A stretch of 64,000 bases of DNA, from the NCBI GenBank assembly GCA_000004985.1, contig GG738887.1; one strand, 5' to 3'. Position 1 is the stretch's first letter; each line of letters begins with the position of its first letter. Source of the DNA: Naegleria gruberi. Lineage: Eukaryota. The position numbers were made by a program, and so were the translations under genes. The notes beneath the pieces are model-generated. The model worked only from the letters and a program-made list of their open reading frames with translations, ran no database searches and was not told where the DNA came from. Shown here one piece after another: positions 3,001-64,000 of this stretch.

Positions 3001-6000
3001 NNNNNNNNNNNNNNNNNNNNNNNNNNNNNNNNNNNNNNNNNNNNNNNNNNNNNNNNNNNNNNNNNNNNNNNNNNNNNNNNNNNNNNNNNNNNNNNNNNNN
3101 NNNNNNNNNNNNNNNNNNNNNNNNNNNNNNNNNNNNNNNNNNNNNNNNNNNNNNNNNNNNNNNNNNNNNNNNNNNNNNNNNNNNNNNNNNNNNNNNNNNN
3201 NNNNNNNNNNNNNNNNNNNNNNNNNNNNNNNNNNNNNNNNNNNNNNNNNNNNNNNNNNNNNNNNNNNNNNNNNNNNNNNNNNNNNNNNNNNNNNNNNNNN
3301 NNNNNNNNNNNNNNNNNNNNNNNNNNNNNNNNNNNNNNNNNNNNNNNNNNNNNNNNNNNNNNNNNNNNNNNNNNNNNNNNNNNNNNNNNNNNNNNNNNNN
3401 NNNNNNNNNNNNNNNNNNNNNNNNNNNNNNNNNNNNNNNNNNNNNNNNNNNNNNNNNNNNNNNNNNNNNNNNNNNNNNNNNNNNNNNNNNNNNNNNNNNN
3501 NNNNNNNNNNNNNNNNNNNNNNNNNNNNNNNNNNNNNNNNNNNNNNNNNNNNNNNNNNNNNNNNNNNNNNNNNNNNNNNNNNNNNNNNNNNNNNNNNNNN
3601 NNNNNNNNNNNNNNNNNNNNNNNNNNNNNNNNNNNNNNNNNNNNNNNNNNNNNNNNNNNNNNNNNNNNNNNNNNNNNNNNNNNNNNNNNNNNNNNNNNNN
3701 NNNNNNNNNNNNNNNNNNNNNNNNNNNNNNNNNNNNNNNNNNNNNNNNNNNNNNNNNNNNNNNNNNNNNNNNNNNNNNNNNNNNNNNNNNNNNNNNNNNN
3801 NNNNNNNNNNNNNNNNNNNNNNNNNNNNNNNNNNNNNNNNNNNNNNNNNNNNNNNNNNNNNNNNNNNNNNNNNNNNNNNNNNNNNNNNNNNNNNNNNNNN
3901 NNNNNNNNNNNNNNNNNNNNNNNNNNNNNNNNNNNNNNNNNNNNNNNNNNNNNNNNNNNNNNNNNNNNNNNNNNNNNNNNNNNNNNNNNNNNNNNNNNNN
4001 NNNNNNNNNNNNNNNNNNNNNNNNNNNNNNNNNNNNNNNNNNNNNNNNNNNNNNNNNNNNNNNNNNNNNNNNNNNNNNNNNNNNNNNNNNNNNNNNNNNN
4101 NNNNNNNNNNNNNNNNNNNNNNNNNNNNNNNNNNNNNNNNNNNNNNNNNNNNNNNNNNNNNNNNNNNNNNNNNNNNNNNNNNNNNNNNNNNNNNNNNNNN
4201 NNNNNNNNNNNNNNNNNNNNNNNNNNNNNNNNNNNNNNNNNNNNNNNNNNNNNNNNNNNNNNNNNNNNNNNNNNNNNNNNNNNNNNNNNNNNNNNNNNNN
4301 NNNNNNNNNNNNNNNNNNNNNNNNNNNNNNNNNNNNNNNNNNNNNNNNNNNNNNNNNNNNNNNNNNNNNNNNNNNNNNNNNNNNNNNNNNNNNNNNNNNN
4401 NNNNNNNNNNNNNNNNNNNNNNNNNNNNNNNNNNNNNNNNNNNNNNNNNNNNNNNNNNNNNNNNNNNNNNNNNNNNNNNNNNNNNNNNNNNNNNNNNNNN
4501 NNNNNNNNNNNNNNNNNNNNNNNNNNNNNNNNNNNNNNNNNNNNNNNNNNNNNNNNNNNNNNNNNNNNNNNNNNNNNNNNNNNNNNNNNNNNNNNNNNNN
4601 NNNNNNNNNNNNNNNNNNNNNNNNNNNNNNNNNNNNNNNNNNNNNNNNNNNNNNNNNNNNNNNNNNNNNNNNNNNNNNNNNNNNNNNNNNNNNNNNNNNN
4701 NNNNNNNNNNNNNNNNNNNNNNNNNNNNNNNNNNNNNNNNNNNNNNNNNNNNNNNNNNNNNNNNNNNNNNNNNNNNNNNNNNNNNNNNNNNNNNNNNNNN
4801 NNNNNNNNNNNNNNNNNNNNNNNNNNNNNNNNNNNNNNNNNNNNNNNNNNNNNNNNNNNNNNNNNNNNNNNNNNNNNNNNNNNNNNNNNNNNNNNNNNNN
4901 NNNNNNNNNNNNNNNNNNNNNNNNNNNNNNNNNNNNNNNNNNNNNNNNNNNNNNNNNNNNNNNNNNNNNNNNNNNNNNNNNNNNNNNNNNNNNNNNNNNN
5001 NNNNNNNNNNNNNNNNNNNNNNNNNNNNNNNNNNNNNNNNNNNNNNNNNNNNNNNNNNNNNNNNNNNNNNNNNNNNNNNNNNNNNNNNNNNNNNNNNNNN
5101 NNNNNNNNNNNNNNNNNNNNNNNNNNNNNNNNNNNNNNNNNNNNNNNNNNNNNNNNNNNNNNNNNNNNNNNNNNNNNNNNNNNNNNNNNNNNNNNNNNNN
5201 NNNNNNNNNNNNNNNNNNNNNNNNNNNNNNNNNNNNNNNNNNNNNNNNNNNNNNNNNNNNNNNNNNNNNNNNNNNNNNNNNNNNNNNNNNNNNNNNNNNN
5301 NNNNNNNNNNNNNNNNNNNNNNNNNNNNNNNNNNNNNNNNNNNNNNNNNNNNNNNNNNNNNNNNNNNNNNNNNNNNNNNNNNNNNNNNNNNNNNNNNNNN
5401 NNNNNNNNNNNNNNNNNNNNNNNNNNNNNNNNNNNNNNNNNNNNNNNNNNNNNNNNNNNNNNNNNNNNNNNNNNNNNNNNNNNNNNNNNNNNNNNNNNNN
5501 NNNNNNNNNNNNNNNNNNNNNNNNNNNNNNNNNNNNNNNNNNNNNNNNNNNNNNNNNNNNNNNNNNNNNNNNNNNNNNNNNNNNNNNNNNNNNNNNNNNN
5601 NNNNNNNNNNNNNNNNNNNNNNNNNNNNNNNNNNNNNNNNNNNNNNNNNNNNNNNNNNNNNNNNNNNNNNNNNNNNNNNNNNNNNNNNNNNNNNNNNNNN
5701 NNNNNNNNNNNNNNNNNNNNNNNNNNNNNNNNNNNNNNNNNNNNNNNNNNNNNNNNNNNNNNNNNNNNNNNNNNNNNNNNNNNNNNNNNNNNNNNNNNNN
5801 NNNNNNNNNNNNNNNNNNNNNNNNNNNNNNNNNNNNNNNNNNNNNNNNNNNNNNNNNNNNNNNNNNNNNNNNNNNNNNNNNNNNNNNNNNNNNNNNNNNN
5901 NNNNNNNNNNNNNNNNNNNNNNNNNNNNNNNNNNNNNNNNNNNNNNNNNNNNNNNNNNNNNNNNNNNNNNNNNNNNNNNNNNNNNNNNNNNNNNNNNNNN

Positions 6001-52398: not shown

Positions 52399-52420
52399 CT
52401 CTGTTGTTTTAATAGTAACT

Positions 52421-55400
52421 TTATTGATTATTAGAATGAGGTGTAACTTGTTCATCGGAAAAAGATATGTGTTGAGAAACTGTTGAGGGATGAATAGAAG
52501 GACGACGCTCTTGTTGCTGTTGTTGTAATTGTTGTAATTCAATAATTTCCTCCTCTGTCACCACTGTCTGGGCATGATGTTTATCTTTCAATAAATAGGT
52601 TTCACAAACACCCTTTCCTTTCACTTCAACACTTCTCTGTTCAAATTCAAATCCAATATCATACACTCTCTGATAGGTCGATCTGGAAATTTGAATTCTT
52701 CCTGCCATTGAAGTTGATTCCATTCGAGAAGCAGTATTGATAGTATCACCCCATAAATCATAGGCAAACTTCTTCTTTCCAATCACACCAGCAACAACTG
52801 ATCCTGTATTGATTCCAACTCGAATATTCAATTGATTTTGAGGATGTTCAATATTATAATTTCTAATTACTTGAAATGTATCAATTGCAAATCTCAATGT
52901 TCTTTCAGGATGATCAGATTGTGGATTATTATGTAAACCTCCAACACAGAAATAGGCATCACCAATTGTCTTGATCTTTTCCAATGAATAAACATCTGTC
53001 AAATCATCAAATCCATTCACAATGGATGACAACATCAAAACCAATTCGCTTGGATTCATTCCACTTGACATTTTCGTAAAACCAACCATATCACTAAAGA
53101 AACAAGTAATATCACTAAATCTCTCAGCAATAAATGTCTCACCTGATTTCAACTTGCTTGCAACAGCATCTGGCAAGATATTTCTCAATAAATTTTCAGA
53201 ATTTTTCTTCTCCTCCGCTAGAAGTGAATTTTGCTTCTTCTCTGGAGTGATATCTCTCATAAAGCATGAAACAACCATTGAGTTACTCTTTCCCTTGTCA
53301 GAGCTGCCAGAAATTCTCGAAACAAAGATGGTGACCATGGCTGGAAACTTTGTGGAATTCTTTCTAACACATTCCAATTCAATAACATCTCCATGTTTGA
53401 CATTTTCATCAATTTCACTCTTGATTGTTTTCAAAATGTTGGACAACTTTTCACCAGAGTGCTCATCAAATAAATGCATAAAGTTTGTTCCCAGAACATC
53501 AGAAATTGACTTTCCGAACATGTTCTGAGCTGGTCCATTGAATAGAATGATATCTCCATTTTCGTTTGCTAATAGTGCACCATCTACCATTGAACTCATT
53601 AATTTCTTCAAAGAATCTTGATCTGTAGCTGAGGATTGTTTTAGCTTTCGTCCAGTCAAATAGTTCGTTCCAATAGAGTTGTACAAGGCAAAACTCTTGA
53701 GTCCATCATTTGATTCTATGAATTCTGTGGACAGATAATTCAGGAATGCTTTCATATTGGTTATTTCGTGATCATAGGTTTGGAAACTGATGAAAATCAT
53801 GTATTGTAATATGAGCATTGAAGTTATACCGAAAATCAAGAATACAATTGAAATTGTAGTGGAAGGAAGAGATGTCAAACTGACCAATGTTGTGAGAAAA
53901 TCTCTAAACTTGTCATAAACCATATCACACATATTAAATAGTGTTAGCAATTCTGCGAATGCTTCTTCAGATTGTGTTGAAGCATAGGAAGGATTGAAGA
54001 ACTTCTCGCTCACTTGTCCTGCCAGTATTGTGAATGTAGACATGTACTTTTGAAGGCCATAACAATCTTTTAACAATTCATTACTTTGTCCAATAATTTT
54101 GTTTCCATTAGATTTCCAATTATAGTCAATGGAGGAATTGGTGCAAGTCGATAGACCAGTAATAATCTTATCTAATTTGGAGTATTTCCCAACGAGTGGT
54201 GTTGTTATTCCATCTTGGCCATAAATAACCTGATCATAAATGGTTGCCGACAAATCAATGAATTGTCTGATTTCTGTTTTCATTGTTTGCAATTGTGAAT
54301 TATTCGAAACCAAAAATGGGCTGTTAATGAATTTTCCAGATGGCAATGACAAGTAAATAAACAATTCATTCAGTCTAATAGTAACTCTATGAACTGTTCT
54401 CAAAAATACACTCAGCAAATCAACATTGTAAATGGCAGATGAAGCAGTTGAAATATTCATTGAAATTTCATAATAAATCAAACCAGAAGACAACATGAAA
54501 ACTGTCACAATTAGAAGTGCCAATATCAGAGAGAAGGCCTTTGGTTGCAAGAGAGGATTTTTCTTCAAGTGCTTGGCATCATCTTTTGTCTTTTCTTCTA
54601 ATTTGTGATAAATTATTCCAACAAAATCTTTTGGAATTTTCTTGTACAGAGATGTGATCTTACTGAACCATGTCATCTCACTCCTTGAAATCAAAATGAA
54701 AATAACGTAAATCATCGTCATTACTGAGGAGGATGTGAAAATATAGGCCAATAAAATAATATTCAACTGGTGAGTGTTTGCTCTTTCGCTTTCCTGGAAT
54801 GACTTGCAGAATTGGAGATAATTATCGGCTAAATATCTTCTATTTAAATAAATGTACATGAAACTGTAACTCTTTGTTGTTTCATTGTATTGCTTTTCTC
54901 CAAAGTTCAAAAATTGCTCAACATGATGCAAGAATTCTTGAGAAACTTCACTCATTGAAACATTTTTTGAGAAGGTGTTTACAAATTCAATTGATTTAGG
55001 ATCTGTTGTTGAAATTGGAATTAAAATTGGACTTGCTCTCTCTGTAAAGTCATTATACATGTTACTTGTAAATTTACCAGATTGTGAATTGGAAATTAAT
55101 GTTTCCAAATACCCCTTATGCTCCAAATATCGATTTCTGAAGGTTGATGTGAAATAATTCAATTCATACATTCGACTCGAGTTCTTTAACCATGATTGTC
55201 CTTCATTTGCGTAAACCTCTGTCAAGATTTGATTCATTCTTGCAACTCTTAGTAATGCACCTGGTGTTGAACCAGGAATGCAACTCTGCAATACAAGAGG
55301 AGTAGAAACAACTCTCTCATTATAAACAATACTCAGAATGAAAATGACAATTAACAAGACATGCATCAAAACTGACAAGAATAGAAAGACTGAGATTCTC

Positions 55401-57643
55401 AGTTTGGATTGGAATGGAGCATTGATGGCAGTTCTGAAGAAGGTTTCCTTCTTGTCAATTCCTTGATTTTCGACACCTTCGAAATCCATCTCATTCCCAT
55501 TGAATTGACTTTTTCCATTTAGGGCTGAACCACTTTCATCTCTTTCAGTACTAATATCTTCATTATTGGTGGACATTTCCACATTGGATGAGGGCACAAT
55601 CTTATTCTTGAATTTCTTTGCTTCGTAATATGATTGTGGATTGTGATGATTGACATTCTTTGATCTCGATTCTTCTTCTTCCATTGCAGCTGCTTCTTCA
55701 AACAATGAAGTAGATAGTTCCTTATCGAATTTGAATTCCTCAAGGTAGGACGCATAAAAACGAATCACTGTCTTATCGTGACTGTGAGCTTTGGTAAGAT
55801 TGAGGAAATTCTGGTCACAGAATAGTGTTAGGACAGAAGCTCTGCTATTAATTTGTGAAAGTTTGGTTTCGTTTGGAATATCGTTCAACATTTCCTTCCA
55901 GAATGATTTATGAACAATTCGAAGCTCAGCAAGGGTTATTTCTAATTCTGTAATTGTGTTTCTTACTTCCATATTTGTCTTGGTTAGCTCGTTGAGTGTA
56001 ATTTCAATTTCTTTTTGTTTTTCAGTGATAAGAACTCTCTTTAAAGTTTGATGACAATGTTTAAGAGCCTTTGCCAGTAGATAATTTGCAAATTGAGATC
56101 TGTGATCATCTTGCCAAATGTAGTTGACCAAAACACTTGAAATGAGCAACATTTCAGTATTAAGGAAGGATTTCTGCTGAGAAATGGATTTCACAAAAGC
56201 AATAGCCATTAATGGATCACTGACAATAGTCACACCGTAATGATCGGGGGAGTGATGTTTCACATTTTGCCCAATTGAAAATTGTAAAAACAACATCAAG
56301 TGTCTTAGAGATAATTGTTCACAAACAATGAAAATGGGAACTGCCTCTCTTTCAATAATGTTGTAAAGTGATAAATCTGCTCTGCTCTCAGTTATTTCAC
56401 AGACACTAATCTTGGTTTTGAAAATATTTCTTATTTGTCTGCAAACAACAAGTGTGTAAATTTCCAAAGCAGTAAAAGCAAGAATGAAAAATAGAATTCC
56501 CAATCCAATACTCAATCCCATCATTCCAAGACCCAAATCACTCAACAGATTTACATTGACCAATGAGCTAATCAATACTCCAATACTAACTCCAAATCTT
56601 GCACAAACAATTCCAAAATAGAGTGAATTCATCATTCGATGATAGAATGGTAAACTGTAAATGACGAGAGGAATGTTGATAAAGCTCAAAATGAGATGAA
56701 CAATCGCTCTCCCCATCATGTAATTCGGTGGAATGAAGAACATGATTAACAATTCCAATCCTATCGTGCAAATGGTTGGTGCCAATATAAAGTTATCCTT
56801 CGTCACAAAAGGAATTCCAACATTGGGTGTATTGATTGGCAATAAAAACACAGAGAAACTCCAACTCACAAATGTAATCATCATTCCAATCAAACTCATG
56901 ACAATTAAAATAGTATTTGTTTTAGAATAACATTGAACTGATGGAAATCTTGACAATCCAGAAACACTTGCTGTCTGATCTTCGACATTGATTTGAATAT
57001 TTGGATTACAATCAACAAAACTGCTCATAATAAATAAGGCAACTGGTCCAATAAACGATACTACTAATGAACAATACATCCCAACCTTGTCAAATATTTT
57101 GTAAATTCCTTCACATCTCTTCTTCATTCCAATAATCATCAAGATAATATTCACCAATGAAATCAATGTAAATAGGACAGAAAGTGCAATTATTCCCTCA
57201 TAAGGAATGGCATCTGTTGATAAAGTGAGTGGATAATTCAATACTCTAAATACCCATCCTCCTTCAAATCCAAACGGTGAAGTATTATATTCATTATTTA
57301 TGGTACTATTAGATGAAAGTATACTAGAATACTCCTGATGAGAAGTCAATGCAGGTAACCACATTCCAATCCACAACATGTATAAAAACCATAACGATAT
57401 AGCCAATCTAGCCAGTCGTATCTTCCACGGGACTGTTACAGGCAAACCTTCTACATAGCTGCCTTTGCTGTTGCTAAACCTTGTGAGGGTGTTCATCCTC
57501 ATCTTGCTACATAAATACATCATTGATAGATATTCATTAAAGGTTTTGAATAAGGAGCTGGCAAAAGAGGCAGAAGTTATTGAAGAACCACCATCTGATG
57601 AAGAGGTGGAAATAGATGATCTTCTGCCTAATGTTGATTCCAT
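52421..57643 (-). CDS. Multi-pass membrane class III adenylyl/guanylyl cyclase with a PAS domain (TM cluster 1; coiled-coil plus degenerate cyclase-like segment; TM cluster 2; PAS; catalytic cyclase domain; short polyQ tail)
   Basis: Uninterrupted 5.3 kb minus-strand ORF with stop TAA at 52421-52423. The track start at 57781 is a TTG (plus 'caa'), not ATG. The frame stays open upstream to a TAA at 57821-57823. In-frame ATGs lie at 57736 (QHMWF, weak context) and 57643 (AAAAGAATGG, good A-rich context); I chose 57643 and the true start is uncertain. Cyclase hallmarks are read directly from the translation: FSDMVGFT and IGDAYF (the two metal-binding Asp motifs), EKIKTIGD (a Lys at the adenine-specifying position), and GVIGKKKFAYDLWGDTINTASRMES. 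A PAS-like segment (GALLANENGDIILFNGPAQNMFG ... VVSCFMRDITPEKK) lies immediately N-terminal. Many hydrophobic 20-25-aa stretches form two TM clusters. Confidence 0.85.
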   Translation of the reverse strand: MESTLGRRSSISTSSSDGGSSITSASFASSLFKTFNEYLSMMYLCSKMRMNTLTRFSNSKGSYVEGLPVTVPWKIRLARLAISLWFLYMLWIGMWLPALTSHQEYSSILSSNSTINNEYNTSPFGFEGGWVFRVLNYPLTLSTDAIPYEGIIALSVLFTLISLVNIILMIIGMKKRCEGIYKIFDKVGMYCSLVVSFIGPVALFIMSSFVDCNPNIQINVEDQTASVSGLSRFPSVQCYSKTNTILIVMSLIGMMITFVSWSFSVFLLPINTPNVGIPFVTKDNFILAPTICTIGLELLIMFFIPPNYMMGRAIVHLILSFINIPLVIYSLPFYHRMMNSLYFGIVCARFGVSIGVLISSLVNVNLLSDLGLGMMGLSIGLGILFFILAFTALEIYTLVVCRQIRNIFKTKISVCEITESRADLSLYNIIEREAVPIFIVCEQLSLRHLMLFLQFSIGQNVKHHSPDHYGVTIVSDPLMAIAFVKSISQQKSFLNTEMLLISSVLVNYIWQDDHRSQFANYLLAKALKHCHQTLKRVLITEKQKEIEITLNELTKTNMEVRNTITELEITLAELRIVHKSFWKEMLNDIPNETKLSQINSRASVLTLFCDQNFLNLTKAHSHDKTVIRFYASYLEEFKFDKELSTSLFEEAAAMEEEESRSKNVNHHNPQSYYEAKKFKNKIVPSSNVEMSTNNEDISTERDESGSALNGKSQFNGNEMDFEGVENQGIDKKETFFRTAINAPFQSKLRISVFLFLSVLMHVLLIVIFILSIVYNERVVSTPLVLQSCIPGSTPGALLRVARMNQILTEVYANEGQSWLKNSSRMYELNYFTSTFRNRYLEHKGYLETLISNSQSGKFTSNMYNDFTERASPILIPISTTDPKSIEFVNTFSKNVSMSEVSQEFLHHVEQFLNFGEKQYNETTKSYSFMYIYLNRRYLADNYLQFCKSFQESERANTHQLNIILLAYIFTSSSVMTMIYVIFILISRSEMTWFSKITSLYKKIPKDFVGIIYHKLEEKTKDDAKHLKKNPLLQPKAFSLILALLIVTVFMLSSGLIYYEISMNISTASSAIYNVDLLSVFLRTVHRVTIRLNELFIYLSLPSGKFINSPFLVSNNSQLQTMKTEIRQFIDLSATIYDQVIYGQDGITTPLVGKYSKLDKIITGLSTCTNSSIDYNWKSNGNKIIGQSNELLKDCYGLQKYMSTFTILAGQVSEKFFNPSYASTQSEEAFAELLTLFNMCDMVYDKFRDFLTTLVSLTSLPSTTISIVFLIFGITSMLILQYMIFISFQTYDHEITNMKAFLNYLSTEFIESNDGLKSFALYNSIGTNYLTGRKLKQSSATDQDSLKKLMSSMVDGALLANENGDIILFNGPAQNMFGKSISDVLGTNFMHLFDEHSGEKLSNILKTIKSEIDENVKHGDVIELECVRKNSTKFPAMVTIFVSRISGSSDKGKSNSMVVSCFMRDITPEKKQNSLLAEEKKNSENLLRNILPDAVASKLKSGETFIAERFSDITCFFSDMVGFTKMSSGMNPSELVLMLSSIVNGFDDLTDVYSLEKIKTIGDAYFCVGGLHNNPQSDHPERTLRFAIDTFQVIRNYNIEHPQNQLNIRVGINTGSVVAGVIGKKKFAYDLWGDTINTASRMESTSMAGRIQISRSTYQRVYDIGFEFEQRSVEVKGKGVCETYLLKDKHHAQTVVTEEEIIELQQLQQQQQERRPSIHPSTVSQHISFSDEQVTPHSNNQ
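52511..52540 (-). repeat. Imperfect (TTG)n / (CAA/CAG)n trinucleotide run encoding QQLQQQQQ in the cyclase C-terminal tail
   Basis: Plus strand reads ttgttgctgttgttgtaattgttgtaattc. Confidence 0.6.
52580..53191 (-). other. Class III nucleotidyl cyclase catalytic (CHD) domain within the cyclase CDS
   Basis: About 204 aa, LLRNILPDAVASKL...FSDMVGFT...EKIKTIGDAYFCVGGL...RVGINTGSVVAGVIG...DLWGDTINTASRMES...VKGKGVCETYLLKDK. Coordinates are computed from the aa index and may be off by a few codons. Confidence 0.85.
53207..53611 (-). other. PAS sensor domain immediately upstream of the cyclase catalytic domain
   Basis: MVDGALLANENGDIILFNGPAQNMFGKSISDVLGTNFMHLF...HGDVIELECVRKNSTKFPAMVTIFVSRI...MVVSCFMRDITPEKK. 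The pattern is PAS-like: N-cap, dG-I-x-x-N, G-y-x-x-E-lIG, and a terminal RDIT-E-KK motif. Confidence 0.65.
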
Positions 57644-58341
57644 TCTTTTCTTGTTGTTGAATAAATTATATTCATGCCAACAGCATTGGCATTGTAGTTT
57701 TTGATAGGTTTTGCCAGGAGAAGATGTGAACCACATGTGTTGTATGAAACATGTAATATTTCCAAACTTCGGCCAATCCAAGTAGATATGAGAAGTGATG
57801 ATGTTTTTGGTTTTAGTACTTTAAAGACATTCCAGTAAGATTGAAATACTAAAGCGATGATTCCTTAATGTAATAAATACAAAAGTAATTCGAATCACGA
57901 TGAAGATTGTTGATCGAATCTATCCAAATGTTCTTGGCACGCCTAATATTTATCAAAATGTCTACTTTGATAAACATCATAGTTTGATTGCTTTTAAAAC
58001 AAATCATGCACATTACTAAATTATTACTGCACTTGTTAATAGGAAATTAGAGCCTTCCGTCGTTCATATGAACTATTTTTGTTACATTTGATTATGAATA
58101 ATACTAATATTGCTCATGTCTCTACACTTGCCTCCTTCATTGTGATATTTTTTAAATAATTAATATTAATAAATATTGAAACTTTAAAATTTTTTAACAA
58201 AAGATAAATTGTGGAAAGTAACGATTTTGATCAATCCCAACAAATTTGTTGCTGTCTCCGAAGCAAAAGAACAAATCATCACACAATATTGAAAGAACAG
58301 TAAATTTCAAGAGCGCCAAAATACAAAAGATTTTTAAAAAA

Positions 58342-58347
58342 TTTATT
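58342..58347 (-). terminator. AATAAA polyadenylation-like hexamer overlapping the stop codon of the EF-hand gene
   Basis: Minus strand reads CAATAAATTTTTTAAAAATC. The stop TAA sits inside AATAAA and is followed by a T-rich tract. Confidence 0.3.
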
Positions 58348-58943
58348 GGAGCATCCAACCAGCCATAGCTTCCTTGAATTCTGTTTGATGTTGTTCAAAA
58401 GAGATGAAAGTTGTTATTTCATGTGAATGTTGGTTAGGGTAGATAGGAACAATGTGTTAATTTTAAGTGGTGTTAGCAAAGATATTGTACTAGAGCGTGT
58501 AAACTTACCATCAAATGTTATCAATCCATTTTGATCGTCATCAATTTCCTTCATCAATTCCTTGGCTTGAGTTTCGGTACCTTCTTCACCCAAAGCCTTC
58601 AAAATTTCTTTCAGTTCGACAACATCAATGACGTTGTTACCATCCTTGTCGCATTGTTTGAAAGCTGTTGTTGTTATTTAATGTATGGACCAGTAGTTAG
58701 TCATTAGTCATTATTGGTATCATCAAGATTTTACAAATTGTTGATTAAATTTTATGTTAGAACGTGATGATTGTTGTTAATAAGATTATAATCAACAGTT
58801 AAAGATATTTTGTTATTGAGAACCAAATTGTTCAATTGTGTGGAAACGCCAGAATAGAGTTATTAGAAATTTCTGTGTCGAAGAAACATACCAATACGAA
58901 TTTGTTCTTGTTGTTGTTCAGAGAGTTTTTCAAATTTGCCCAT
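58343..58943 (-). CDS. Small two-EF-hand Ca2+-binding protein (calmodulin-like or polcalcin-like, 81 aa), three exons: 58892..58943, 58509..58664, 58343..58380
   Basis: Exon 1 reads ATG GGC AAA TTT GAA AAA CTC TCT GAA CAA CAA CAA GAA CAA ATT CGT ATT G and is followed by GTATGT. Exon 2 follows the acceptor ...caacaacag| and reads CT TTC AAA CAA TGC GAC AAG GAT GGT AAC AAC GTC ATT GAT GTT GTC GAA ...GAT G, followed by GTAAGT. Exon 3 follows ...atcaaacag| and reads AA TTC AAG GAA GCT ATG GCT GGT TGG ATG CTC CAA TAA. All junctions are phase 1 and the spliced product is one frame: MGKFEKLSEQQQEQIRIAFKQCDKDGNNVIDVVELKEILKALGEEGTETQAKELMKEIDDDQNGLITFDEFKEAMAGWMLQ. Splicing restores the canonical Glu at position 12 of the second EF loop (DDDQNGLITFDE). 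The track's 62-aa ORF 58414..58602 is exon 2 read through into the intron. Confidence 0.62.
58381..58508 (-). other. Intron 2 of the EF-hand gene (128 nt, GTAAGT...CAG, phase 1)
   Basis: Donor is GATG|GTAAGTTT, CTAAC motifs lie inside, and the acceptor is atcaaaCAG|AATTCAAG. Splicing yields ...ITFD-E-FKEAMAGWMLQ*. Confidence 0.6.
58665..58891 (-). other. Intron 1 of the EF-hand gene (227 nt, GTATGT...AG, phase 1)
   Basis: Donor is G|GTATGTTTC. A GACTAAC branch-like motif (ACTAAC at 58696-58701) lies about 32 nt upstream of the acceptor caacaacAG. A 227-nt interval is too short to hide another EF-hand pair. Confidence 0.55.
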
Positions 58944-59510
58944 TTTTTTATGATTGGTTTTTGCTTGTCAAGTTTTGACAGTGACGTCTTTTAGCCCATC
59001 AACTTCAAGAGGTGTGAAATGGCAGTTACCACTATTGATCACTGAGGCAACTGTTGTTTGAATTACCTCATTACCTGACGTTTAATTAAGAACTTTATCA
59101 ATAAATCAATAATATTTCATTTATTATCATTGATTAGTTTGTGATATGTTTTCAAAGATGACAACTTAAAAGAGTGATTCTCTTTACTGTTTCAAATTCC
59201 AAATTGAAACACTTTCAAAGTAAAAGCTCTTCACATTGATTAACTCTCTTTCATTTCAATCCACCTCTCATCGTAACACCATTGAGGAAAATGATTTCAA
59301 TATATCATCTGACAAAATTGTTCGAATTGAAATTAGTGATATTCATCCTGTATTACTGTTTTCTTAACAGCTCAAATTATTGATATAAATTCATCCAAAC
59401 AAACAAATAATTATAACATGTTCTATTGGGGTTCAACCCATGCTCGAGTCGTAAACAATAAATTGGAATACAATTAAAGTAGTGTTACATTTCATTGATA
59501 TAATACAAAG

Positions 59511-61010
59511 TTAATCCATTTCTGTAGTATTGATTTGAACATCTGATAAAGTTCCATTATGTAAGGATCTAAGCAATTTAGTCTTAATAAGTTTTACATT
59601 TTTGGAAAGAAGAGGATATCTAAATACTTGCAATCTTTGGTTATTCCATTCAACTACTAATAATTCCTGTCGTTTTTCATCAAGGGCGCAACCAGTTGGT
59701 TTGGTTAACTCGCTCTTTTCAATACCTGCCTCTCCAAATGAAGTAATAAATTGAAGTTTTGAATTAAAAATCTGAATTCTATCATTCATCGAATCACAAA
59801 CGATAATATTGCCATTCGTTCTATCGATACAAAATCCTTCTTGACAAGCGAATTGTCCTGGTTGATTTCCATGACCATTTTCAATTTTTCTTATCAGAGA
59901 GCCATTCAACTTGGACAAGACAAGAATTCTGTGATTTTCACGGTCGGAAACTACCAAATTTCCATCAAGATCAAAATCAATATCCTTTGGTCCATCGAAC
60001 TGGGTGTCTCCACTTCCTTTTGATCCAAAATCTCTAAGAAAATCACCATTCTTTGAAAGGACTACAATTCTATGGTTATCAAAATCACATATATAAATAT
60101 CTTCATTGGTTGTATCAATAACCAGACCTCTTGCCCAATTTAGATTTGGATAACTTTTCCAAATCAATTTAGATCCATCATATGAATACTTGTAAACATA
60201 ATTGTCGTCACAAGTGAAAATAATACTATCATCAACCTCACTCACAACCAGACATCTAGGATAAGATGATAAACTAATATGAAATTTAAATTGCCTAGTG
60301 CCCAATTCAAACACTGCAATTCTTCTATTGTACGTGTCTGTGACATAGAAGATATTCCTTTCGTGATACAGAGTCACATCCAAAGGATATGCAAAGGATG
60401 AATCTTTCGAAGTCTCACTCGTACAATACAGCGTGTCAAATCCAAGCATTGGTTTTCTCTTTACTCCACAATTAATATTCATAGGAAAGCCGTTAACAAA
60501 TTTCTTATTCTCTCCAATCACAACTTGACAACAAACTGCAACATTACAGTCATCAGCAAGTAAATCCTTAATTTTATCTGGAATAGTAATCATTATTGGT
60601 ATTTCCTTTGATGCTACACTCCTAGTCACTCCATCAATTTCCAATTCACTAACATCAACTTGTTGAAAGTATGATGAATATCGTTTTTCTGCAATTATGT
60701 TATTTCCACCATATTCTTCATCACCGGAAAGTCTTTCCAATGTTACAGAAATTACAATTTCATCTTCTGGAAAGCTACTCGCCAATTGATCAAATTCATC
60801 ATCAGATCGAGTTGTTCCATCTTGTTGCTGCTGTTCATTAATAAAATCCAATTCTACAGTAAATTCAATATTACTTCCGCTCTTGTACTTTCGGTCCGAG
60901 GTTAGATTTTGCCATTCGATCACTCTTGGATAAATAAAAGATGATGCTGAAGAACTTTCGGAAGAAGAGATTGGGATGGCGTGGGAAATAATTTCCTCCC
61001 TTGATGACAT
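59511..61010 (-). CDS. NHL-repeat beta-propeller protein (499 aa) with an uncharacterised roughly 200-aa beta-rich N-terminal region
   Basis: ATG at 61008-61010 is preceded by an A-run, with an in-frame stop 24 nt upstream. Stop TAA is at 59511-59513. The C-terminal approximately 280 aa carry repeated NHL signatures: DNHRIVVLSKNGDFLRDFGSKGSGDTQFDGPKDIDFDLDGNLVVSDRENHRILVL; GHGNQPGQFACQEGFCIDRTNGNIIVCDSMNDRIQIF; and FGEAGIEKSELTKPTGCALDEKRQELLVVEWNNQRLQVF. Together these indicate about six blades. No RING or B-box is visible. Confidence 0.8.
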   Translation of the reverse strand: MSSREEIISHAIPISSSESSSASSFIYPRVIEWQNLTSDRKYKSGSNIEFTVELDFINEQQQQDGTTRSDDEFDQLASSFPEDEIVISVTLERLSGDEEYGGNNIIAEKRYSSYFQQVDVSELEIDGVTRSVASKEIPIMITIPDKIKDLLADDCNVAVCCQVVIGENKKFVNGFPMNINCGVKRKPMLGFDTLYCTSETSKDSSFAYPLDVTLYHERNIFYVTDTYNRRIAVFELGTRQFKFHISLSSYPRCLVVSEVDDSIIFTCDDNYVYKYSYDGSKLIWKSYPNLNWARGLVIDTTNEDIYICDFDNHRIVVLSKNGDFLRDFGSKGSGDTQFDGPKDIDFDLDGNLVVSDRENHRILVLSKLNGSLIRKIENGHGNQPGQFACQEGFCIDRTNGNIIVCDSMNDRIQIFNSKLQFITSFGEAGIEKSELTKPTGCALDEKRQELLVVEWNNQRLQVFRYPLLSKNVKLIKTKLLRSLHNGTLSDVQINTTEMD

Positions 61011-61299
61011 TTTTTTTAAAATTATTAAATTTTACGCGTTATTTACTTGTTCCAAGTTCCGAACAAGACTTTATAATTTATTGTAAAGTAAATTCAACCT
61101 TTTGTGCATGGGTGGAGTTTCATTGAATGAATATCAACACCAGTATTTTGGTTTTGTAAACGAGCATTTTCAAACCAATGGTGAACATGATTGACTTTGT
61201 AGCTTAAAACCGCGGAAATATTTGATATTTTAAAAACAAAAAAAAAATCATTTTAATTAATCAGAGTTTCAAATATCAAACCCTCTTAACCCTCTCGCG
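61011..61299. promoter_or_regulatory. Divergent intergenic or promoter region between the NHL gene (minus) and the 61300 gene (plus)
   Basis: The region is 289 bp and AT-rich. It carries three CpG-containing palindromic hexamers that stand out against the AT background: ACGCGT 61034-61039, CCGCGG 61210-61215 and TCGCGA 61295-61300. It also holds an inverted repeat, CTTGTTC-N8-GAACAAG, at 61046-61067, and an A10 run at 61236-61246. Confidence 0.4.
61046..61067. repeat. Inverted repeat CTTGTTC(n8)GAACAAG, with GTTCC duplicated in the loop, in the divergent promoter
   Basis: acttgttccaagttccgaacaagact; the 7-bp arms are perfect complements. Confidence 0.45.
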
Positions 61300-62319
61300 A
61301 TGACCAAGAACAATAACGTTGATAAACCAATCTTTGAACAAACTATTTACGATCCAATTACCCATCGTCCTGTTTTTAAAATTGTTATTAGAAAGAAGGG
61401 ATTGGCCCATGTTTCATTGGAATTGTTCGATGGCATCAAGATCAGAGTGGTTGTGGTTGATGCATTGCAAAACAGATCAGGCTGGTACATGATGAAGAAC
61501 AACTTTAGCGATAACAAGATGCGTGCTGAAATGACAATTTCCAAGATACTTGGTGCTTGTCAAGTTAAGTGCCCAACAAAGGCAGTGGGTGATATTATTA
61601 TTGTGCTCCTTGGTCATGTTATCAAGTTGAAGACAAGGCTGGTTGTGGTTAAGAATAATTCTAATTTATCAGTGGTTCAAGCCATCTATTTGAATGGTGA
61701 AGATGAACCTCTATGGATTCCTGATGATGATGAAATGTCAGAAGAAAAAGAAGAAGAAATTAATGTTGATGGTGGATTGGAACCTGTAACAACAAACAGA
61801 AAGAAAAGAAAGCCTAGAAAGAGAGCTTCTGCTTCTGCTTCCTCTAGTTCCTCTGCTGAAACAATGATTGAAGATCAAGAGTCAAAATCTGGAACTAAAA
61901 GAAAGACCAGTGAGAAGACTAAACCAAGAAAGAAGAAGTTAGTTGCAGCTTCCTCTTCTGGTGATGATACAGGTAGTATTCAAACTTATTATTCTCAAAC
62001 ACTTTCTGGAAACTCTTTGTCACCACCGGTTCCTAATATTATTACACCACCAAGTGTCAATCCAATGCAAAACTTTGTTCCAATGACATCATCTGCACCA
62101 CTAACTTTCAATACGGTGCAAAATTTCATCCCAACAACTCCATTAATGGATCCAAGAATCCCGAATTCTACGTATCCAACTGCCATGTCTCAAATGGCTG
62201 CCAGCAGTGCACCACCAAGTCCAAATTCCTTCCCAAATTCCCTTAATTCAGACTTTGATTTTTTGTTTGAACAAGATGATTCTTACTCAAACAGTAGAGA
62301 ACAAAATGATTATTTTTAG
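61300..62319 (+). CDS. Hypothetical protein (339 aa) with a beta-rich N-terminal domain, an acidic tract, a bipartite basic NLS, an S/P/N-rich tail and a DFDFLF motif at the C-terminus. Likely nuclear; fold unassigned (nucleoplasmin-like or LSm/FDF-like are both possible).
   Basis: ATG at 61300 is the first in-frame ATG after a TAA at 61258. Stop TAG is at 62317-62319. Composition read from the translation: residues about 20-140 are hydrophobic and beta-like (VFKIVIRKKGLAHVSLELFDGIKIRVVVVDAL...IIIVLLGHVIKLKTRLVVV); then DDDEMSEEKEEE; then RKKRKPRKR...KRKTSEKTKPRKKK; then a P/S/N/T-rich stretch ending SDFDFLFEQDD. Confidence 0.7.
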   Translation: MTKNNNVDKPIFEQTIYDPITHRPVFKIVIRKKGLAHVSLELFDGIKIRVVVVDALQNRSGWYMMKNNFSDNKMRAEMTISKILGACQVKCPTKAVGDIIIVLLGHVIKLKTRLVVVKNNSNLSVVQAIYLNGEDEPLWIPDDDEMSEEKEEEINVDGGLEPVTTNRKKRKPRKRASASASSSSSAETMIEDQESKSGTKRKTSEKTKPRKKKLVAASSSGDDTGSIQTYYSQTLSGNSLSPPVPNIITPPSVNPMQNFVPMTSSAPLTFNTVQNFIPTTPLMDPRIPNSTYPTAMSQMAASSAPPSPNSFPNSLNSDFDFLFEQDDSYSNSREQNDYF

Positions 62320-62335
62320 GCATTTTCTTTGAAGT

Positions 62336-62351
62336 ATTGTCACAAGACAAT
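62336..62351. repeat. Perfect small palindrome ATTGTC-ACAA-GACAAT in the 3' UTR, 17 nt after the stop of the 61300 gene
   Basis: attgtcacaagacaat. Confidence 0.4.
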
Positions 62352-62370
62352 ACCAAAGACAGCTGCGCTA

Positions 62371-62376
62371 AATAAA
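62371..62376 (+). terminator. AATAAA polyadenylation-like signal for the 61300..62319 gene
   Basis: gctAAATAAAtcactt, 52 nt downstream of the TAG. Confidence 0.35.
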
Positions 62377-62434
62377 TCACTTATATATATTTACATTATT
62401 TCTAATATTTTATTATATCAGTATTAAATTACAA

Positions 62435-62440
62435 TTTATT
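62435..62440 (-). terminator. AATAAA polyadenylation-like signal (minus strand) just after the stop of the C2-domain gene, in a 127-bp convergent 3' intergenic spacer
   Basis: Plus 'tttatt' corresponds to minus 'taaataaattgtaa'. Confidence 0.25.
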
Positions 62441-62446
62441 AAATAA

Positions 62447-63825
62447 TTATGGTTGAACATTCCAATCATTCTTTTCATCCCATTCTCTTACTCGAATTCT
62501 CTTTTCTTTTGTCAAGTTGGCTCCTTTCAATAGAACTGTATTAACCAAATTAGATTCCTGACTAAAGTCACGAGGTCCATAATTGCAGGTAATTGTGTAT
62601 TGTGGCAATAAACCCATTCTAAGATAACATTCAGCCACAAATTCAGAACAGAATACATTAGCATCATTGGATTGAGTATTTCTCTTAATGACACATTTCA
62701 ATAATTCAGATTTTGAAGTTTCGTATTTCTTATCAATGGAAATCTTCAAATAATCAACAAGTGTTGGGAATTGATCCACAATATTCTCATCCTTTGGTCT
62801 ATTATCCATTGAAGGAATGTTCAATCTTCTCAAACAACACAAATCAGTTGGATCTCTTTCCAAATAATCCATAAACCACTTTCTCAATTCTACTAATTGA
62901 ATTCCACCACCTTCCTTATTGTCCACAGTATCAGTTTCAGATTCTGCAACAAAAACAGTTGAAAATCTTGATGAAGCATCAACTTGAACCTTATACAATT
63001 CCAATAATTCTTTCGGTGGATTTCTAATAATAATCGACAAGTGAGACCAAGTTGATGAAAATCCCAATTGAATAGCTTTTGAGAAAGTTCCCTTTCCAGA
63101 ATGCAACAAGACATCACCAGTTCTCAATTCATCATAAATATCCTCCAAATACTCTACACCAAACAAGTTATCCAATCGTTGAGATTCCTTTTCTGAAATA
63201 TTTCCACTCAAAATTGATTTTAAACTTCTTCCTCTACTGGCGAAACCTCTTCCCTTCTCATTCTTGTATTCATTTAAAAAGTTGGTCAAGTCAATTTGTG
63301 GAATATTCTCAGAGAGTGAATCAACGAAACCATCATTAATTTGAAAGTTGAGAGGTTCAATTCGAATATGTAAACTTCCTTTTGGAACTCCTTGCAAGTT
63401 TAGCCACATTTCGAATGGTTTCTTCTCTTCCAATTTGAGAGTAGAAAGTGAAACTGCTATGAATCCCAATGAATCATCTCCTGTGAATTTGTCCTTATCA
63501 TATAATTGACAAATTAGGACATATTGTTCTGGATTGTGATCGAGTGGAATTTCAAAAGTTTCATTCCAGACAGGATTTAATGAGTTGGAAATTACATGAG
63601 TCTTGAACTGTTCCTTCTTTTTACCTCCGAGCCAGGCAACACAGTATGGATCAGAAACGTCACCTTTTTAGTGATTGTTAATTTTGACACCTGTCAAAAC
63701 TTACCATTTTTACCAGAATCAGTGTTGATCAAATTTTTAGCTTCCAAGATGGTGAGTTTCATGTGGAAGGTTTTGAAAGAGCTGAAAGTCTTGTCAACTC
63801 CAAAGTGTTTTGGTGTGATTGGCAT
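62447..63825 (-). CDS. C2 domain + circularly permuted NlpC/P60 papain-fold (YaeF/YiiX- or LRAT-like) domain protein, two exons: 63705..63825 and 62447..63663 (about 445 aa; alternative ATG at 63762)
   Basis: The track ORF 62447..63469 starts at TTG, not ATG. The frame is open upstream and encodes VSDPYCVAWLGGKKKEQFKTHVISNSLNPVWNETFEIPLDHNPEQYVLICQLYDKDKFTGDDSLGFIAV... as far as an acceptor AG at 63664. Upstream exon 1 reads ATG CCA ATC ... ATG AAA CTC ACC ATC TTG GAA GCT AAA AAT TTG ATC AAC ACT GAT TCT GGT AAA AAT G|GTAAGT and joins in phase 1 (the G codon). The reconstructed N-terminus MKLTILEAKNLINTDSGKNGDVSDPYCVAW...NPVWNETFEI is a textbook C2 beta-sandwich start. ATG 63825 is the first ATG after an in-frame TAA at 63847-63849, with context AAAAAAAATGC. 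The C-terminal domain has GDVLLHSGKGTFSKAIQLGFSSTWSHLSIII (the His strand), then about 150 aa, then NVFCSEFVAECYL (the Cys motif). This matches the permuted H-then-C order and the CSE(L/F)V motif of YaeF/YiiX / LRAT-type NlpC/P60 enzymes. Stop TAA is at 62447-62449. Confidence 0.72.
63664..63704 (-). other. Intron (41 nt, GTAAGT...AG, phase 1) in the C2-domain gene
   Basis: Minus strand reads G|GTAAGTTTTGACAGGTGTCAAAATTAACAATCACTAAAAAG|GTGACGTTTCT. An in-frame TAA inside it shows the sequence cannot be coding. Its removal joins ...GKN-G-DVSDPYCVAW in a continuous C2 domain. Confidence 0.7.
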
Positions 63826-63846
63826 TTTTTTTGATTGTGAATTTGA

Positions 63847-63927
63847 TTACTGACAGCGCTCCATCTTGTTACCCAAAACGACATTTATGGCAAGGTGGTT
63901 GTTGCATGATTTTTCATTGTAATTCAT
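63847..63927 (-). other. Candidate 26-codon upstream ORF (MNYNEKSCNNHLAINVVLGNKMERCQ*) ending 21 nt before, and in frame with, the main ATG of the C2-domain gene
   Basis: ATG at 63925-63927 (minus) and TAA at 63847-63849. It is only meaningful if the transcription start lies upstream of 63927, and that start is unknown. Confidence 0.2.
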
Positions 63928-64000
63928 TGATGATCCAAGTTTCTTCTAGAATAGTGCTCTTTCGATTTGCAATTTTATTCGAAAGGTCAGTTCTAATAAA

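What the first reader, a model, noticed from the sequence alone, without database searches (positions are those of the whole stretch)
58343..58943. Hidden three-exon gene for an 81-aa two-EF-hand protein, absent from the ORF track
The only ORF-track hint is a 62-aa minus-strand ORF (58414-58602). Its C-terminal 31 residues (GKFTRSSTISLLTPLKINTLFLSTLTNIHMK) are intron read-through. Splicing three phase-1 junctions, each G|GTATGT or G|GTAAGT to AG, gives a coherent protein with two canonical EF loops (DKDGNNVIDVVE and DDDQNGLITFDE) in a polcalcin- or calmodulin-lobe-like fold. The splice restores the invariant Glu at position 12 of loop 2, which is strong internal evidence for the gene model. 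The stop codon sits inside an AATAAA hexamer.
Basis: seen in the sequence. Interest (0 to 1): 0.5.

Follow-up and report, generated by a model that had tools for sequence, protein, structure and literature searches.

The report
Unannotated small EF-hand gene in Naegleria

Summary
The gene model holds. On the minus strand, exon 1 (58943-58892), exon 2 (58664-58509) and exon 3 (58380-58343) join across two GT..AG introns of 227 and 128 nt, both phase 1. The 246-nt CDS encodes an 81-aa protein with two canonical EF-hand loops (Pfam EF-hand_7, E=4e-17).

The window is Naegleria gruberi NEG-M; only 52399-64000 is real sequence. Annotated 81-aa orthologs exist in N. fowleri (93% identical), N. lovaniensis and Willaertia magna (85-87%). 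They tile the three exons residue for residue. pN/pS is 0.07-0.16, so the gene is under purifying selection.

No N. gruberi protein matching this gene appears in the protein collections searched here. It therefore looks like a missed gene model in the reference annotation.

- There are two introns, not three junctions.
- The predicted fold is closest to a calmodulin lobe or centrin N-domain, not specifically to a polcalcin.

One modest extra: intron 1 is shared by all Naegleria/Willaertia orthologs, but intron 2, which splits the loop-2 Glu codon, occurs only in N. gruberi. That points to a lineage-specific gain.

Function is inferred, not tested: a single-lobe Ca2+ sensor or buffer. No transcript data could be consulted. 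Low interest; new member of a known kind.

The parts
58944..58962 (-). Immediate 5' flank or 5'UTR (aaaaccaatcataaaaaa before the ATG), A-rich start context
   Evidence: blastn of metagenomic ortholog locus L003 against the window extends 19 nt upstream of the ATG, within an HSP that is 92% identical over 78 nt (sequences). An in-frame TGA at 58970-58968 closes the frame upstream.
58892..58943 (-). Exon 1 coding part: ATG plus 52 nt, residues 1-17 and the first base of codon 18
   Evidence: tblastn of the N. fowleri and W. magna proteins places residues 1-17 at 58943-58893.
58665..58891 (-). Intron 1, 227 nt, GTATGT...CAG, phase 1. CTAAC at 58700-58696, 32 nt before the acceptor
   Evidence: An intron sits at the identical codon position in N. 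fowleri (464 nt), N. lovaniensis (336 nt), W. magna (97 nt) and metagenome L003 (52 nt). There are stops in all three frames and only one internal AG.
58509..58664 (-). Exon 2, 156 nt, residues 18-69 plus the first base of Glu70. Contains EF loop 1 (DKDGNNVIDVVE) and most of loop 2 (DDDQNGLITFD)
   Evidence: 85% nucleotide identity to L003, with the HSP ending at the exon edge.
58381..58508 (-). Intron 2, 128 nt, GTAAGT...CAG, phase 1, inside the Glu12 codon of EF loop 2. CTAAC at 58437-58433
   Evidence: It is absent from the N. fowleri, N. lovaniensis, W. magna and L003 orthologs and from both Acrasis kona homologs. L003 is contiguous at position 3893, where the window carries this interval. 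Retention would give a 100-aa product with only one EF loop.
58343..58380 (-). Exon 3 coding part: last two bases of Glu70, residues 71-81 (FKEAMAGWMLQ) and the TAA stop
   Evidence: tblastn places N. fowleri residues 70-81 at 58381-58346, 10 of 12 identical. blastn to L003 is 85% identical over 40 nt.
58342..58347 (-). AATAAA hexamer overlapping the stop codon. Possible poly(A) signal; function not tested
   Evidence: The same overlap is seen in N. fowleri and L003 but not in W. magna, which has CATAAA.

Best explanation
This is a real, intact, spliced protein-coding gene of Naegleria gruberi. It has three coding exons and two phase-1 GT-AG introns, and encodes an acidic 81-residue protein (9.3 kDa, pI 4.4) that consists of a single EF-hand pair.

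Both 12-residue loops carry the canonical Ca2+ ligands: Asp1, Asp3, Asn5 and Glu12. By inference, the protein binds two Ca2+ ions the way one lobe of calmodulin does. It would then act as a small cytosolic Ca2+ sensor, exposing a hydrophobic Met/Phe/Leu/Trp surface for a target, or as a Ca2+ buffer, possibly as a dimer.

It is the N. gruberi ortholog of the annotated 81-aa 'hypothetical EF-hand' proteins of N. fowleri, N. lovaniensis and Willaertia magna. It belongs to a family of 80-90-aa proteins spread across Heterolobosea, with two Acrasis kona homologs. It appears to have been missed in the N. gruberi reference protein set because no uninterrupted piece is long.

Shown: the gene structure, the homology and the purifying selection. 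Inferred: transcription and splicing in N. gruberi, Ca2+ binding, and the sensor or buffer role.
For: Structure:
- Exon and intron coordinates and the in-frame 246-nt CDS.
- Donors at two of only three GTA[AT]GT hexamers in 11.6 kb; introns nearly free of internal AG.
- In-frame TGA 27 nt upstream of the ATG.

Homology:
- EF-hand_7 at E=4.2e-17 and 62.7 bits.
- Calmodulin lobes are the best solved relatives by sequence (E about 1e-24 for whole chains).
- N. fowleri FDP41_004824 is 93% identical over 100% of the length, and W. magna ABK040_000209 is 87% (85% in the alignments). N. lovaniensis C9374_006366 is in the same 90% cluster.
- Ortholog proteins tile the exons as residues 1-17, 18-69 and 70-81.
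- Nucleotide HSPs to L003 stop at the exon edges.

Selection: pN/pS is 0.07-0.16 with pS of 0.45-0.84.

Loops: both match the EF-hand loop pattern.

Fold: the AlphaFold2 model of the N. fowleri ortholog has pLDDT 82, with four main helices, a short extra N-terminal helical turn and a short beta bridge. The best structural matches are the calmodulin N-lobe, centrin N-domain and troponin C.

Organism and annotation status:
- The neighbouring ORF at 59511-61010 is 100% identical to N. gruberi XP_002674020.1.
- The exact 81-aa sequence is not in the 15-billion-protein collection.
- No N. gruberi protein appears among hits to the protein or to the family profile.
Against: - No RNA-seq or EST evidence could be consulted, so transcription and the two junctions in N. 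gruberi itself rest on comparative inference.
- The exact product is absent from every indexed source, including assemblies of public sequencing runs. There is therefore no independent sighting of the spliced product.
- Intron 2 has no counterpart in any relative examined. Its splicing is inferred only from conservation of exon 3 and from the splice signals.
- The structure model is of the N. fowleri ortholog, built from a three-sequence alignment, and has moderate confidence.
- Ca2+ binding and any target are untested.
- Loop 1 has Asn rather than Gly at position 6. My recalled copy of the PROSITE-type loop pattern allows this, but it is less common.
Confidence: 0.93

Rival explanations
1. 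Intron 2 is not removed, or is removed only sometimes. The main product would then be the 100-aa read-through protein (...ITFDGKFTRSS...HMK), with one working EF-hand and a disrupted second loop.
For: The read-through frame stays open for 31 codons. Intron 2 is unique to N. gruberi among the relatives examined. No transcript data were available.
Against: Exon 3 encodes EFKEAMAGWMLQ, 10 of 12 identical to the N. fowleri C-terminus. It is 85% identical at nucleotide level to L003, while the 128-nt interval has no counterpart there. That conservation makes sense only if exon 3 is translated in this frame. The interval has a consensus GTAAGT donor, a CTAAC, a CAG acceptor and no usable internal AG. 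The read-through product loses Glu12 and the exiting helix of loop 2.
Confidence: 0.04
2. The locus is a decaying or unexpressed pseudogene copy, which would explain why it is not in the N. gruberi annotation.
For: It is absent from the N. gruberi protein sets indexed here. Its neighbours differ from those of the N. fowleri and N. lovaniensis orthologs.
Against: The start, frame, stop and four splice sites are all intact. Differences from orthologs are overwhelmingly synonymous, with pN/pS of 0.08 against N. fowleri. All Ca2+-ligand positions are intact. The 5' flank is conserved with L003. Short multi-exon genes are a well-known blind spot of gene predictors (general knowledge).
Confidence: 0.02
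3. These exons are part of a larger gene, for example a four-EF-hand calmodulin-like protein with further exons outside 58343-58943.
For: Calmodulin-family proteins usually have four EF-hands, and the best sequence matches are to calmodulin.
Against: Orthologs in three annotated genomes are 81 aa with the same start and stop. There is an in-frame TGA 27 nt upstream of the ATG. The stop codon position is conserved. tblastn finds no further EF-hand segments nearby. The flanking ORFs are an adenylate cyclase and an NHL-repeat protein.
Confidence: 0.01

Closest known systems
Naegleria fowleri FDP41_004824 (XP_044560862.1), N. lovaniensis C9374_006366 (XP_044547057.1), Willaertia magna ABK040_000209 (KAL9651862.1): annotated 81-aa 'hypothetical / EF-hand domain-containing' proteins
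   Same: Same length, start and stop. 85-93% identity. Same intron 1 position and phase. Same two canonical loops, plus the conserved Cys22 and Trp78.
   Different: They have one intron; N. gruberi has an extra 128-nt intron in the Glu70 codon. N. fowleri and N. lovaniensis share a gene neighbourhood (glycosyltransferase 61, EF-hand, proteasome subunit, CTP_transf_1) that the N. gruberi locus does not have. None of these proteins has a studied function.
Acrasis kona 82-aa protein auto-named 'squidulin' (P0276), Acrasis kona 'calmodulin-like protein' (P0282), and environmental 83-88-aa relatives (P0224, P0234, P0275, P0277, P0281)
   Same: Same single EF-hand-pair architecture. 54-69% identity. 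Conserved ...ICD.D.N..ID..ELKEVL.ALG...QAK.LMK.ID.DGNG.I.F.EF.EAMA.WW... signature.
   Different: One to a few residues longer at the C-terminus, with WW in place of WM. Intron positions are entirely different: in the linker after ALGE/ALGQ, inside loop 1, and after E73.
Calmodulin, single lobe (N- or C-terminal EF-hand pair)
   Same: About 38% identity to either lobe over about 70 residues. Same four main helices, loop lengths and ligand positions. Best sequence and structure matches.
   Different: Calmodulin has four EF-hands in two lobes (about 149 aa); this protein is one lobe only. It would therefore have to act as a monomeric half-calmodulin or as a dimer.
Centrin N-terminal domain / troponin C N-domain
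   Same: EF-hand-pair fold; Foldseek TM about 0.6 with 32-44% identity.
   Different: Those are domains of four-EF-hand proteins, and centrins carry a basic N-terminal extension. That architecture is not present here.
Polcalcins (two-EF-hand pollen proteins, e.g. Phl p 7, Bet v 4)
   Same: Similar size and two canonical EF-hands.
   Different: No polcalcin is in the top 50 structural matches. There is a one-residue gap in the linker, and no polcalcin-type C-terminal segment after the fourth helix. Polcalcins are plant pollen proteins (own knowledge). The resemblance is no closer than to calmodulin.
S100 proteins / calbindin D9k
   Same: Small proteins built from a single EF-hand pair.
   Different: They have a 14-residue pseudo-EF loop in the first hand (own knowledge). 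Here both loops are canonical 12-residue loops.

Membership tests
EF-hand domain pair (Pfam PF13499, EF-hand_7) | Profile score above the curated gathering threshold | tested here: met
   62.7 bits against a cut-off of 30, E=4.2e-17, residues 13-75 covering profile positions 2-66 of 67.
EF-hand domain pair (Pfam PF13499, EF-hand_7) | Two canonical 12-residue Ca2+-binding loops with ligands at positions 1, 3, 5 and 12 and a hydrophobic residue at position 8 | tested here: met
   DKDGNNVIDVVE (residues 23-34) and DDDQNGLITFDE (residues 59-70) both match the PROSITE-type EF-hand loop pattern.
EF-hand domain pair (Pfam PF13499, EF-hand_7) | Helix-loop-helix pair fold with a short beta bridge between the loops | tested here: met
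   The AlphaFold2 model of the 93%-identical N. fowleri ortholog has a short N-terminal helical turn (3-6), four main helices at 9-19, 32-41, 48-58 and 68-78, and strands in both loops; pLDDT 82. Top PDB matches are EF-hand pairs.
EF-hand domain pair (Pfam PF13499, EF-hand_7) | Actual Ca2+ binding | not testable with these tools
   Needs ITC, a 45Ca overlay or NMR on recombinant protein.
Heterolobosean 81-aa EF-hand protein family (orthologs of N. fowleri FDP41_004824) | Full-length collinear similarity with the same start and stop | tested here: met
   93% (N. fowleri) and 85-87% (W. magna) identity over 98-100% of the length. Exact tiling of the three exons.
Heterolobosean 81-aa EF-hand protein family (orthologs of N. 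fowleri FDP41_004824) | Shared phase-1 intron between codons 17 and 18 (Ile17 / Ala18) | tested here: met
   Present at the same site in N. gruberi, N. fowleri, N. lovaniensis, W. magna and L003.
Heterolobosean 81-aa EF-hand protein family (orthologs of N. fowleri FDP41_004824) | Conserved gene neighbourhood | tested here: not met
   N. fowleri and N. lovaniensis share flanking genes. The N. gruberi locus lies between an adenylate cyclase and an NHL-repeat gene. Synteny is not a defining requirement for orthology, but it is not available as support.
Calmodulin | Four EF-hands in two lobes, about 149 aa | tested here: not met
   81 aa, two EF-hands, in-frame stop upstream and a conserved stop downstream.
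Polcalcin | About 77-86 aa with two EF-hands plus a C-terminal segment after the fourth helix; specific sequence relationship to the plant pollen proteins | tested here: not met
   Only generic EF-hand similarity: 38% over 53 aa to a sequence recalled from memory. No polcalcin among the top 50 structural matches. The protein ends 3 residues after helix 4.
S100 / calbindin D9k | N-terminal 14-residue pseudo-EF-hand loop | tested here: not met
   Loop 1 is a canonical 12-residue loop.
Spliceosomal GT-AG introns (for the two intervals) | GT donor with extended consensus, AG acceptor, frame restored on removal | tested here: met
   GTATGT..CAG and GTAAGT..CAG. Removal gives an open 246-nt frame. 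The donor hexamer is rare in the window and also marks a third intron, in the C2-domain gene.
Spliceosomal GT-AG introns (for the two intervals) | Observed removal from mRNA | not testable with these tools
   No transcript data were accessible.

The most novel reading that the evidence does not exclude
Intron 2 (58381-58508) is a recent gain specific to the N. gruberi lineage. It was inserted precisely inside the codon for the invariant Glu12 of EF loop 2, in a gene whose relatives lack it.

Across Heterolobosea, this 81-codon gene carries introns at five or more different positions:
- Ile17/Ala18 in Naegleria and Willaertia.
- Inside loop 1, in one Acrasis kona paralog.
- The inter-hand linker, in both Acrasis kona homologs and in one environmental sequence.
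- Asp69/Glu70 in N. gruberi only.
- Glu73/Ala74 in one Acrasis kona paralog.

This makes the gene a compact, datable example of intron turnover in a lineage usually described as intron-poor.

One gain is more parsimonious than three independent exact losses (W. magna, the N. fowleri/N. lovaniensis ancestor, and L003). L003 is the closest relative of the N. gruberi gene at synonymous sites (pS 0.45).
Probability: 0.6. Interest if true: 0.25.

Novelty: new member of a known kind. Interest (0 to 1): 0.15.

Why it matters
It matters mainly as annotation hygiene. The N. gruberi NEG-M reference proteome is widely used in reconstructions of the early eukaryotic gene repertoire and in expression studies. 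It seems to lack this conserved small Ca2+-binding protein, so absence calls and expression datasets based on that gene set would miss it.

Short multi-exon genes like this one are a systematic blind spot. In this window the GTAAGT/GTATGT hexamer is so rare outside donor sites that it could serve as a simple flag for finding more of them.

The N. gruberi-specific intron in a codon that is uninterrupted in all close relatives is a small, clean data point for intron gain. Nothing here suggests new biology beyond a further EF-hand protein of unknown target.

Tried and rejected
- Fetching the N. gruberi contig with its called genes, through the NHL protein. This failed because that assembly's gene positions are not on record. 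I could not inspect the official gene track. 'Unannotated' rests on the absence of any N. gruberi hit.
- Exhaustive HMMER search. It was swamped by multi-EF-hand proteins (23,866 hits) and added only two short relatives.
- Literature searches for the N. fowleri locus tag, for Naegleria EF-hand proteins, for re-annotation and for intron gain. Nothing on this gene.
- Repeat search in the window. Intron 2 has no copy within the 11.6 kb, so an introner-like origin could not be tested.
- Synteny between L003 and the window. There is none beyond the gene itself.
- N-myristoylation. I considered it because of the Met-Gly start, but rejected it as a claim. From my own knowledge of the motif, Lys at position 3 and the lack of Ser/Thr at position 6 fit the consensus poorly, and two family members start with MS.
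- The polcalcin assignment, rejected.

Full report
**What the window is.** Only positions 52399-64000 carry sequence; 1-52398 are N. The 499-aa ORF at 59511-61010 (minus strand) is 100% identical to Naegleria gruberi XP_002674020.1 (NAEGRDRAFT_71009). The window is therefore N. gruberi NEG-M nuclear DNA, at about 31-35% G+C. This is a eukaryote with spliceosomal introns, so a track of uninterrupted ORFs is expected to miss short multi-exon genes.

**Checking the observation.** The minus-strand sequence and a mechanical reconstruction give the following layout.

| Feature | Coordinates | Length | Boundaries |
|---|---|---|---|
| Exon 1 | 58943-58892 | 52 nt | starts at ATG, ends ...CGTATTG |
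| Intron 1 | 58891-58665 | 227 nt | GTATGT...AACAG |
| Exon 2 | 58664-58509 | 156 nt | ends ...TTTGATG |
| Intron 2 | 58508-58381 | 128 nt | GTAAGT...AAACAG |
| Exon 3 | 58380-58343 | 38 nt | ends TAA |

The joined CDS is 246 nt and encodes MGKFEKLSEQQQEQIRIAFKQCDKDGNNVIDVVELKEILKALGEEGTETQAKELMKEIDDDQNGLITFDEFKEAMAGWMLQ (81 aa, 9.3 kDa, pI 4.4).

- Both introns are phase 1.
- The 62-aa ORF at 58414-58602 and its read-through tail are as quoted.
- Glu70, which is position 12 of loop 2, is assembled from G (exon 2) + AA (exon 3).
- The stop lies within AATAAA at 58347-58342, and an in-frame TGA sits 27 nt upstream of the ATG.

**Is it more than chance?**
- The donor hexamer GTA[AT]GT occurs only three times on both strands of the 11.6 kb, against about 16 expected from base composition. 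Two of these are the two proposed donors. The third, at 63704, is the donor of a 41-nt phase-1 intron in a neighbouring C2-domain gene, whose removal also restores a long open frame.
- Both introns have stops in all frames and lower G+C than the exons. Neither has an internal AG other than one at position 19, plus the AG inside GTAAGT in intron 2. Each carries a CTAAC 32 or 53 nt before the acceptor.

**Comparative evidence.**
- The product hits Pfam EF-hand_7 at 62.7 bits (cut-off 30).
- Its closest database relatives are annotated 81-aa proteins: N. fowleri FDP41_004824 at 93% identity and Willaertia magna ABK040_000209 at 87% in the search (85% in the alignments). N. lovaniensis C9374_006366 falls in the same 90% cluster.
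- tblastn of these proteins against the window gives three collinear segments that tile the query without gap or overlap: residues 1-17 at 58943-58893, 18-69 at 58665-58510, and 70-81 at 58381-58346.
- At nucleotide level, a metagenomic ortholog (L003) aligns to the window in three HSPs that end at the exon edges. Its coordinates are contiguous (…3893/3893…) exactly where the window carries the 128-nt intron 2.
- Pairwise comparison of the four CDSs gives pS of 0.45-0.84 but pN of only 0.05-0.11, so pN/pS is 0.07-0.16. The frame is under purifying selection.
- Together these results settle the gene model about as firmly as is possible without transcripts.

**Intron history.** All Naegleria/Willaertia orthologs have intron 1 at the same codon position: 464, 336, 97 and 52 nt in N. 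fowleri, N. lovaniensis, W. magna and L003. None has intron 2; the sequence ...TTTGA(T/C)GA(A/G)TT(C/T)AA... is uninterrupted in each.

L003 is the closest to N. gruberi at synonymous sites and shares its 5' flank. One gain in the N. gruberi lineage is therefore more parsimonious than three exact losses.

More distant family members show other positions. Both Acrasis kona homologs have a linker intron after ALGE/ALGQ. One of them also has an intron inside loop 1 and another after Glu73. An environmental sequence reads through a linker intron (P0278).

**What the protein is.**
- Both loops match the EF-hand loop pattern, with Asp1, Asp3, Asn5 and Glu12.
- An AlphaFold2 model of the N. fowleri ortholog (pLDDT 82) shows a short N-terminal helical turn (3-6), four main helices at 9-19, 32-41, 48-58 and 68-78, and short strands in the loops.
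- Foldseek against the PDB returns the calmodulin N-lobe, centrin N-domains and troponin C, with TM about 0.6 and 32-44% identity. No polcalcin is in the top 50.
- By sequence, both calmodulin lobes match equally well. A polcalcin sequence recalled from memory aligns at 38% over 53 residues, no better than calmodulin.
- The protein ends three residues after helix 4, so it is a bare single lobe.
- A family profile finds 20 relatives at E<=1e-10, about nine of them full-length proteins of 80-90 aa. Named sources are N. fowleri, W. magna and Acrasis kona, the last auto-named 'squidulin' and 'calmodulin-like'. The rest are environmental or transcriptome sequences, some fragments or intron read-throughs.
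- Cys22 (just before loop 1), Trp78 and the FDEF.EAMA.W C-terminus are conserved across the seven members aligned.

**Mechanism.** These steps are inferred. Two Ca2+ ions would bind cooperatively to the paired loops. As in a calmodulin lobe, binding would open the helices and expose a hydrophobic surface. Candidate residues are Phe19, Leu35, Ile38, Leu39, Leu54, Met55, Phe68, Phe71, Met75, Trp78 and Met79. Several of them align with the hydrophobic patch residues of the calmodulin N-lobe. The exposed surface would bind a target helix or a second copy of the protein. Whether it is a sensor or a buffer cannot be decided here.

**Annotation status.** The exact 81-aa sequence is absent from the 15-billion-sequence collection. 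No N. gruberi protein appears among hits to the protein or to the family profile, although the N. gruberi proteome is indexed (one search shows the neighbour from NCBI, UniProt and EukProt). The gene therefore seems to be missing from the reference N. gruberi protein set. I could not view the official gene track.

**Rivals.**
- Retention of intron 2 would give a 100-aa product with one EF-hand. It is contradicted by the conservation of exon 3 in the spliced frame.
- A pseudogene is contradicted by the intact signals and the low pN/pS.
- A larger gene is contradicted by the upstream in-frame stop, by the conserved stop, and by the 81-aa orthologs.

**Verdict.** This is an ordinary small EF-hand gene and a new (unannotated) member of a known kind. 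Its only mildly unusual feature is a lineage-specific intron.

Noticed in passing
window 1-52398: The first 52,398 positions of the window are N. Only 11,602 bases (52399-64000) are real sequence.
   Followed up: yes
window 52399-64000, both strands; hits at 63704, 58891, 58508 (minus): The hexamer GTA[AT]GT is strongly depleted: 3 observed against about 16 expected from base composition. All three occurrences sit at plausible 5' splice sites. In N. gruberi this hexamer alone looks like a good flag for introns.
   Followed up: partly
window 62447-63825, minus strand: This is a two-exon gene. ATG at 63825, a 41-nt phase-1 intron at 63704-63664 (GTAAGT...AAAAAG), stop at 62447. Splicing gives a 445-aa protein with a C2-domain-like N-terminus (…SDPYCVAWLGG…NPVWNE…) and a weak Peptidase_C92 (permuted papain-like amidase) match, just below the Pfam cut-off, in the C-terminal part. 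The ORF track shows only the 340-aa second exon, with a spurious TTG start.
   Followed up: partly
window 52421-57781, minus strand: A 1786-aa uninterrupted ORF encodes a multi-pass membrane protein with a TmcB-like TPR region, a PAS domain and a C-terminal class III adenylate/guanylate cyclase domain (PF00211, E=1e-56). Its stop lies 23 nt from the N-run boundary. The listed TTG start is probably not the true start.
   Followed up: partly
L015 1501-1934 (Acrasis kona JAOPGA020001561.1): The annotated Acrasis kona 'calmodulin-like protein' (P0282, 103 aa) looks mis-spliced at its last intron. Using GAG|GTTAGT...AAATAG|GCC ATG GCA AGT TGG TTA TAA gives the family-typical C-terminus ...FDEFKEAMASWL*, instead of the annotated ...FDEFKEQIGHGKLVINYG... 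tail.
   Followed up: partly
L001 / L010 / L011 versus window: The ortholog's neighbourhood (glycosyltransferase 61, EF-hand, proteasome subunit, CTP_transf_1) is conserved between N. fowleri and N. lovaniensis. In N. gruberi the gene instead lies between an adenylate cyclase and an NHL-repeat gene.
   Followed up: partly
window 58944-58962 and 63826-63835 (minus strand): Both spliced genes in the window have an A-run immediately before the ATG (cataaaaaaATG and aatcaaaaaaaATG). The orthologs of the EF-hand gene in N. fowleri, W. magna and L003 do too. This may be the preferred start context in these amoebae.
   Followed up: no
P0278-P0280 (NCBI, 143 aa) and P0283 (EukProt transcriptome, 106 aa): Several database 'proteins' of this family are intron read-through artefacts. 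One example is ALGM|VSNKSF...LQQ|GTDQEA in P0278. So the family is poorly modelled in other organisms as well.
   Followed up: no
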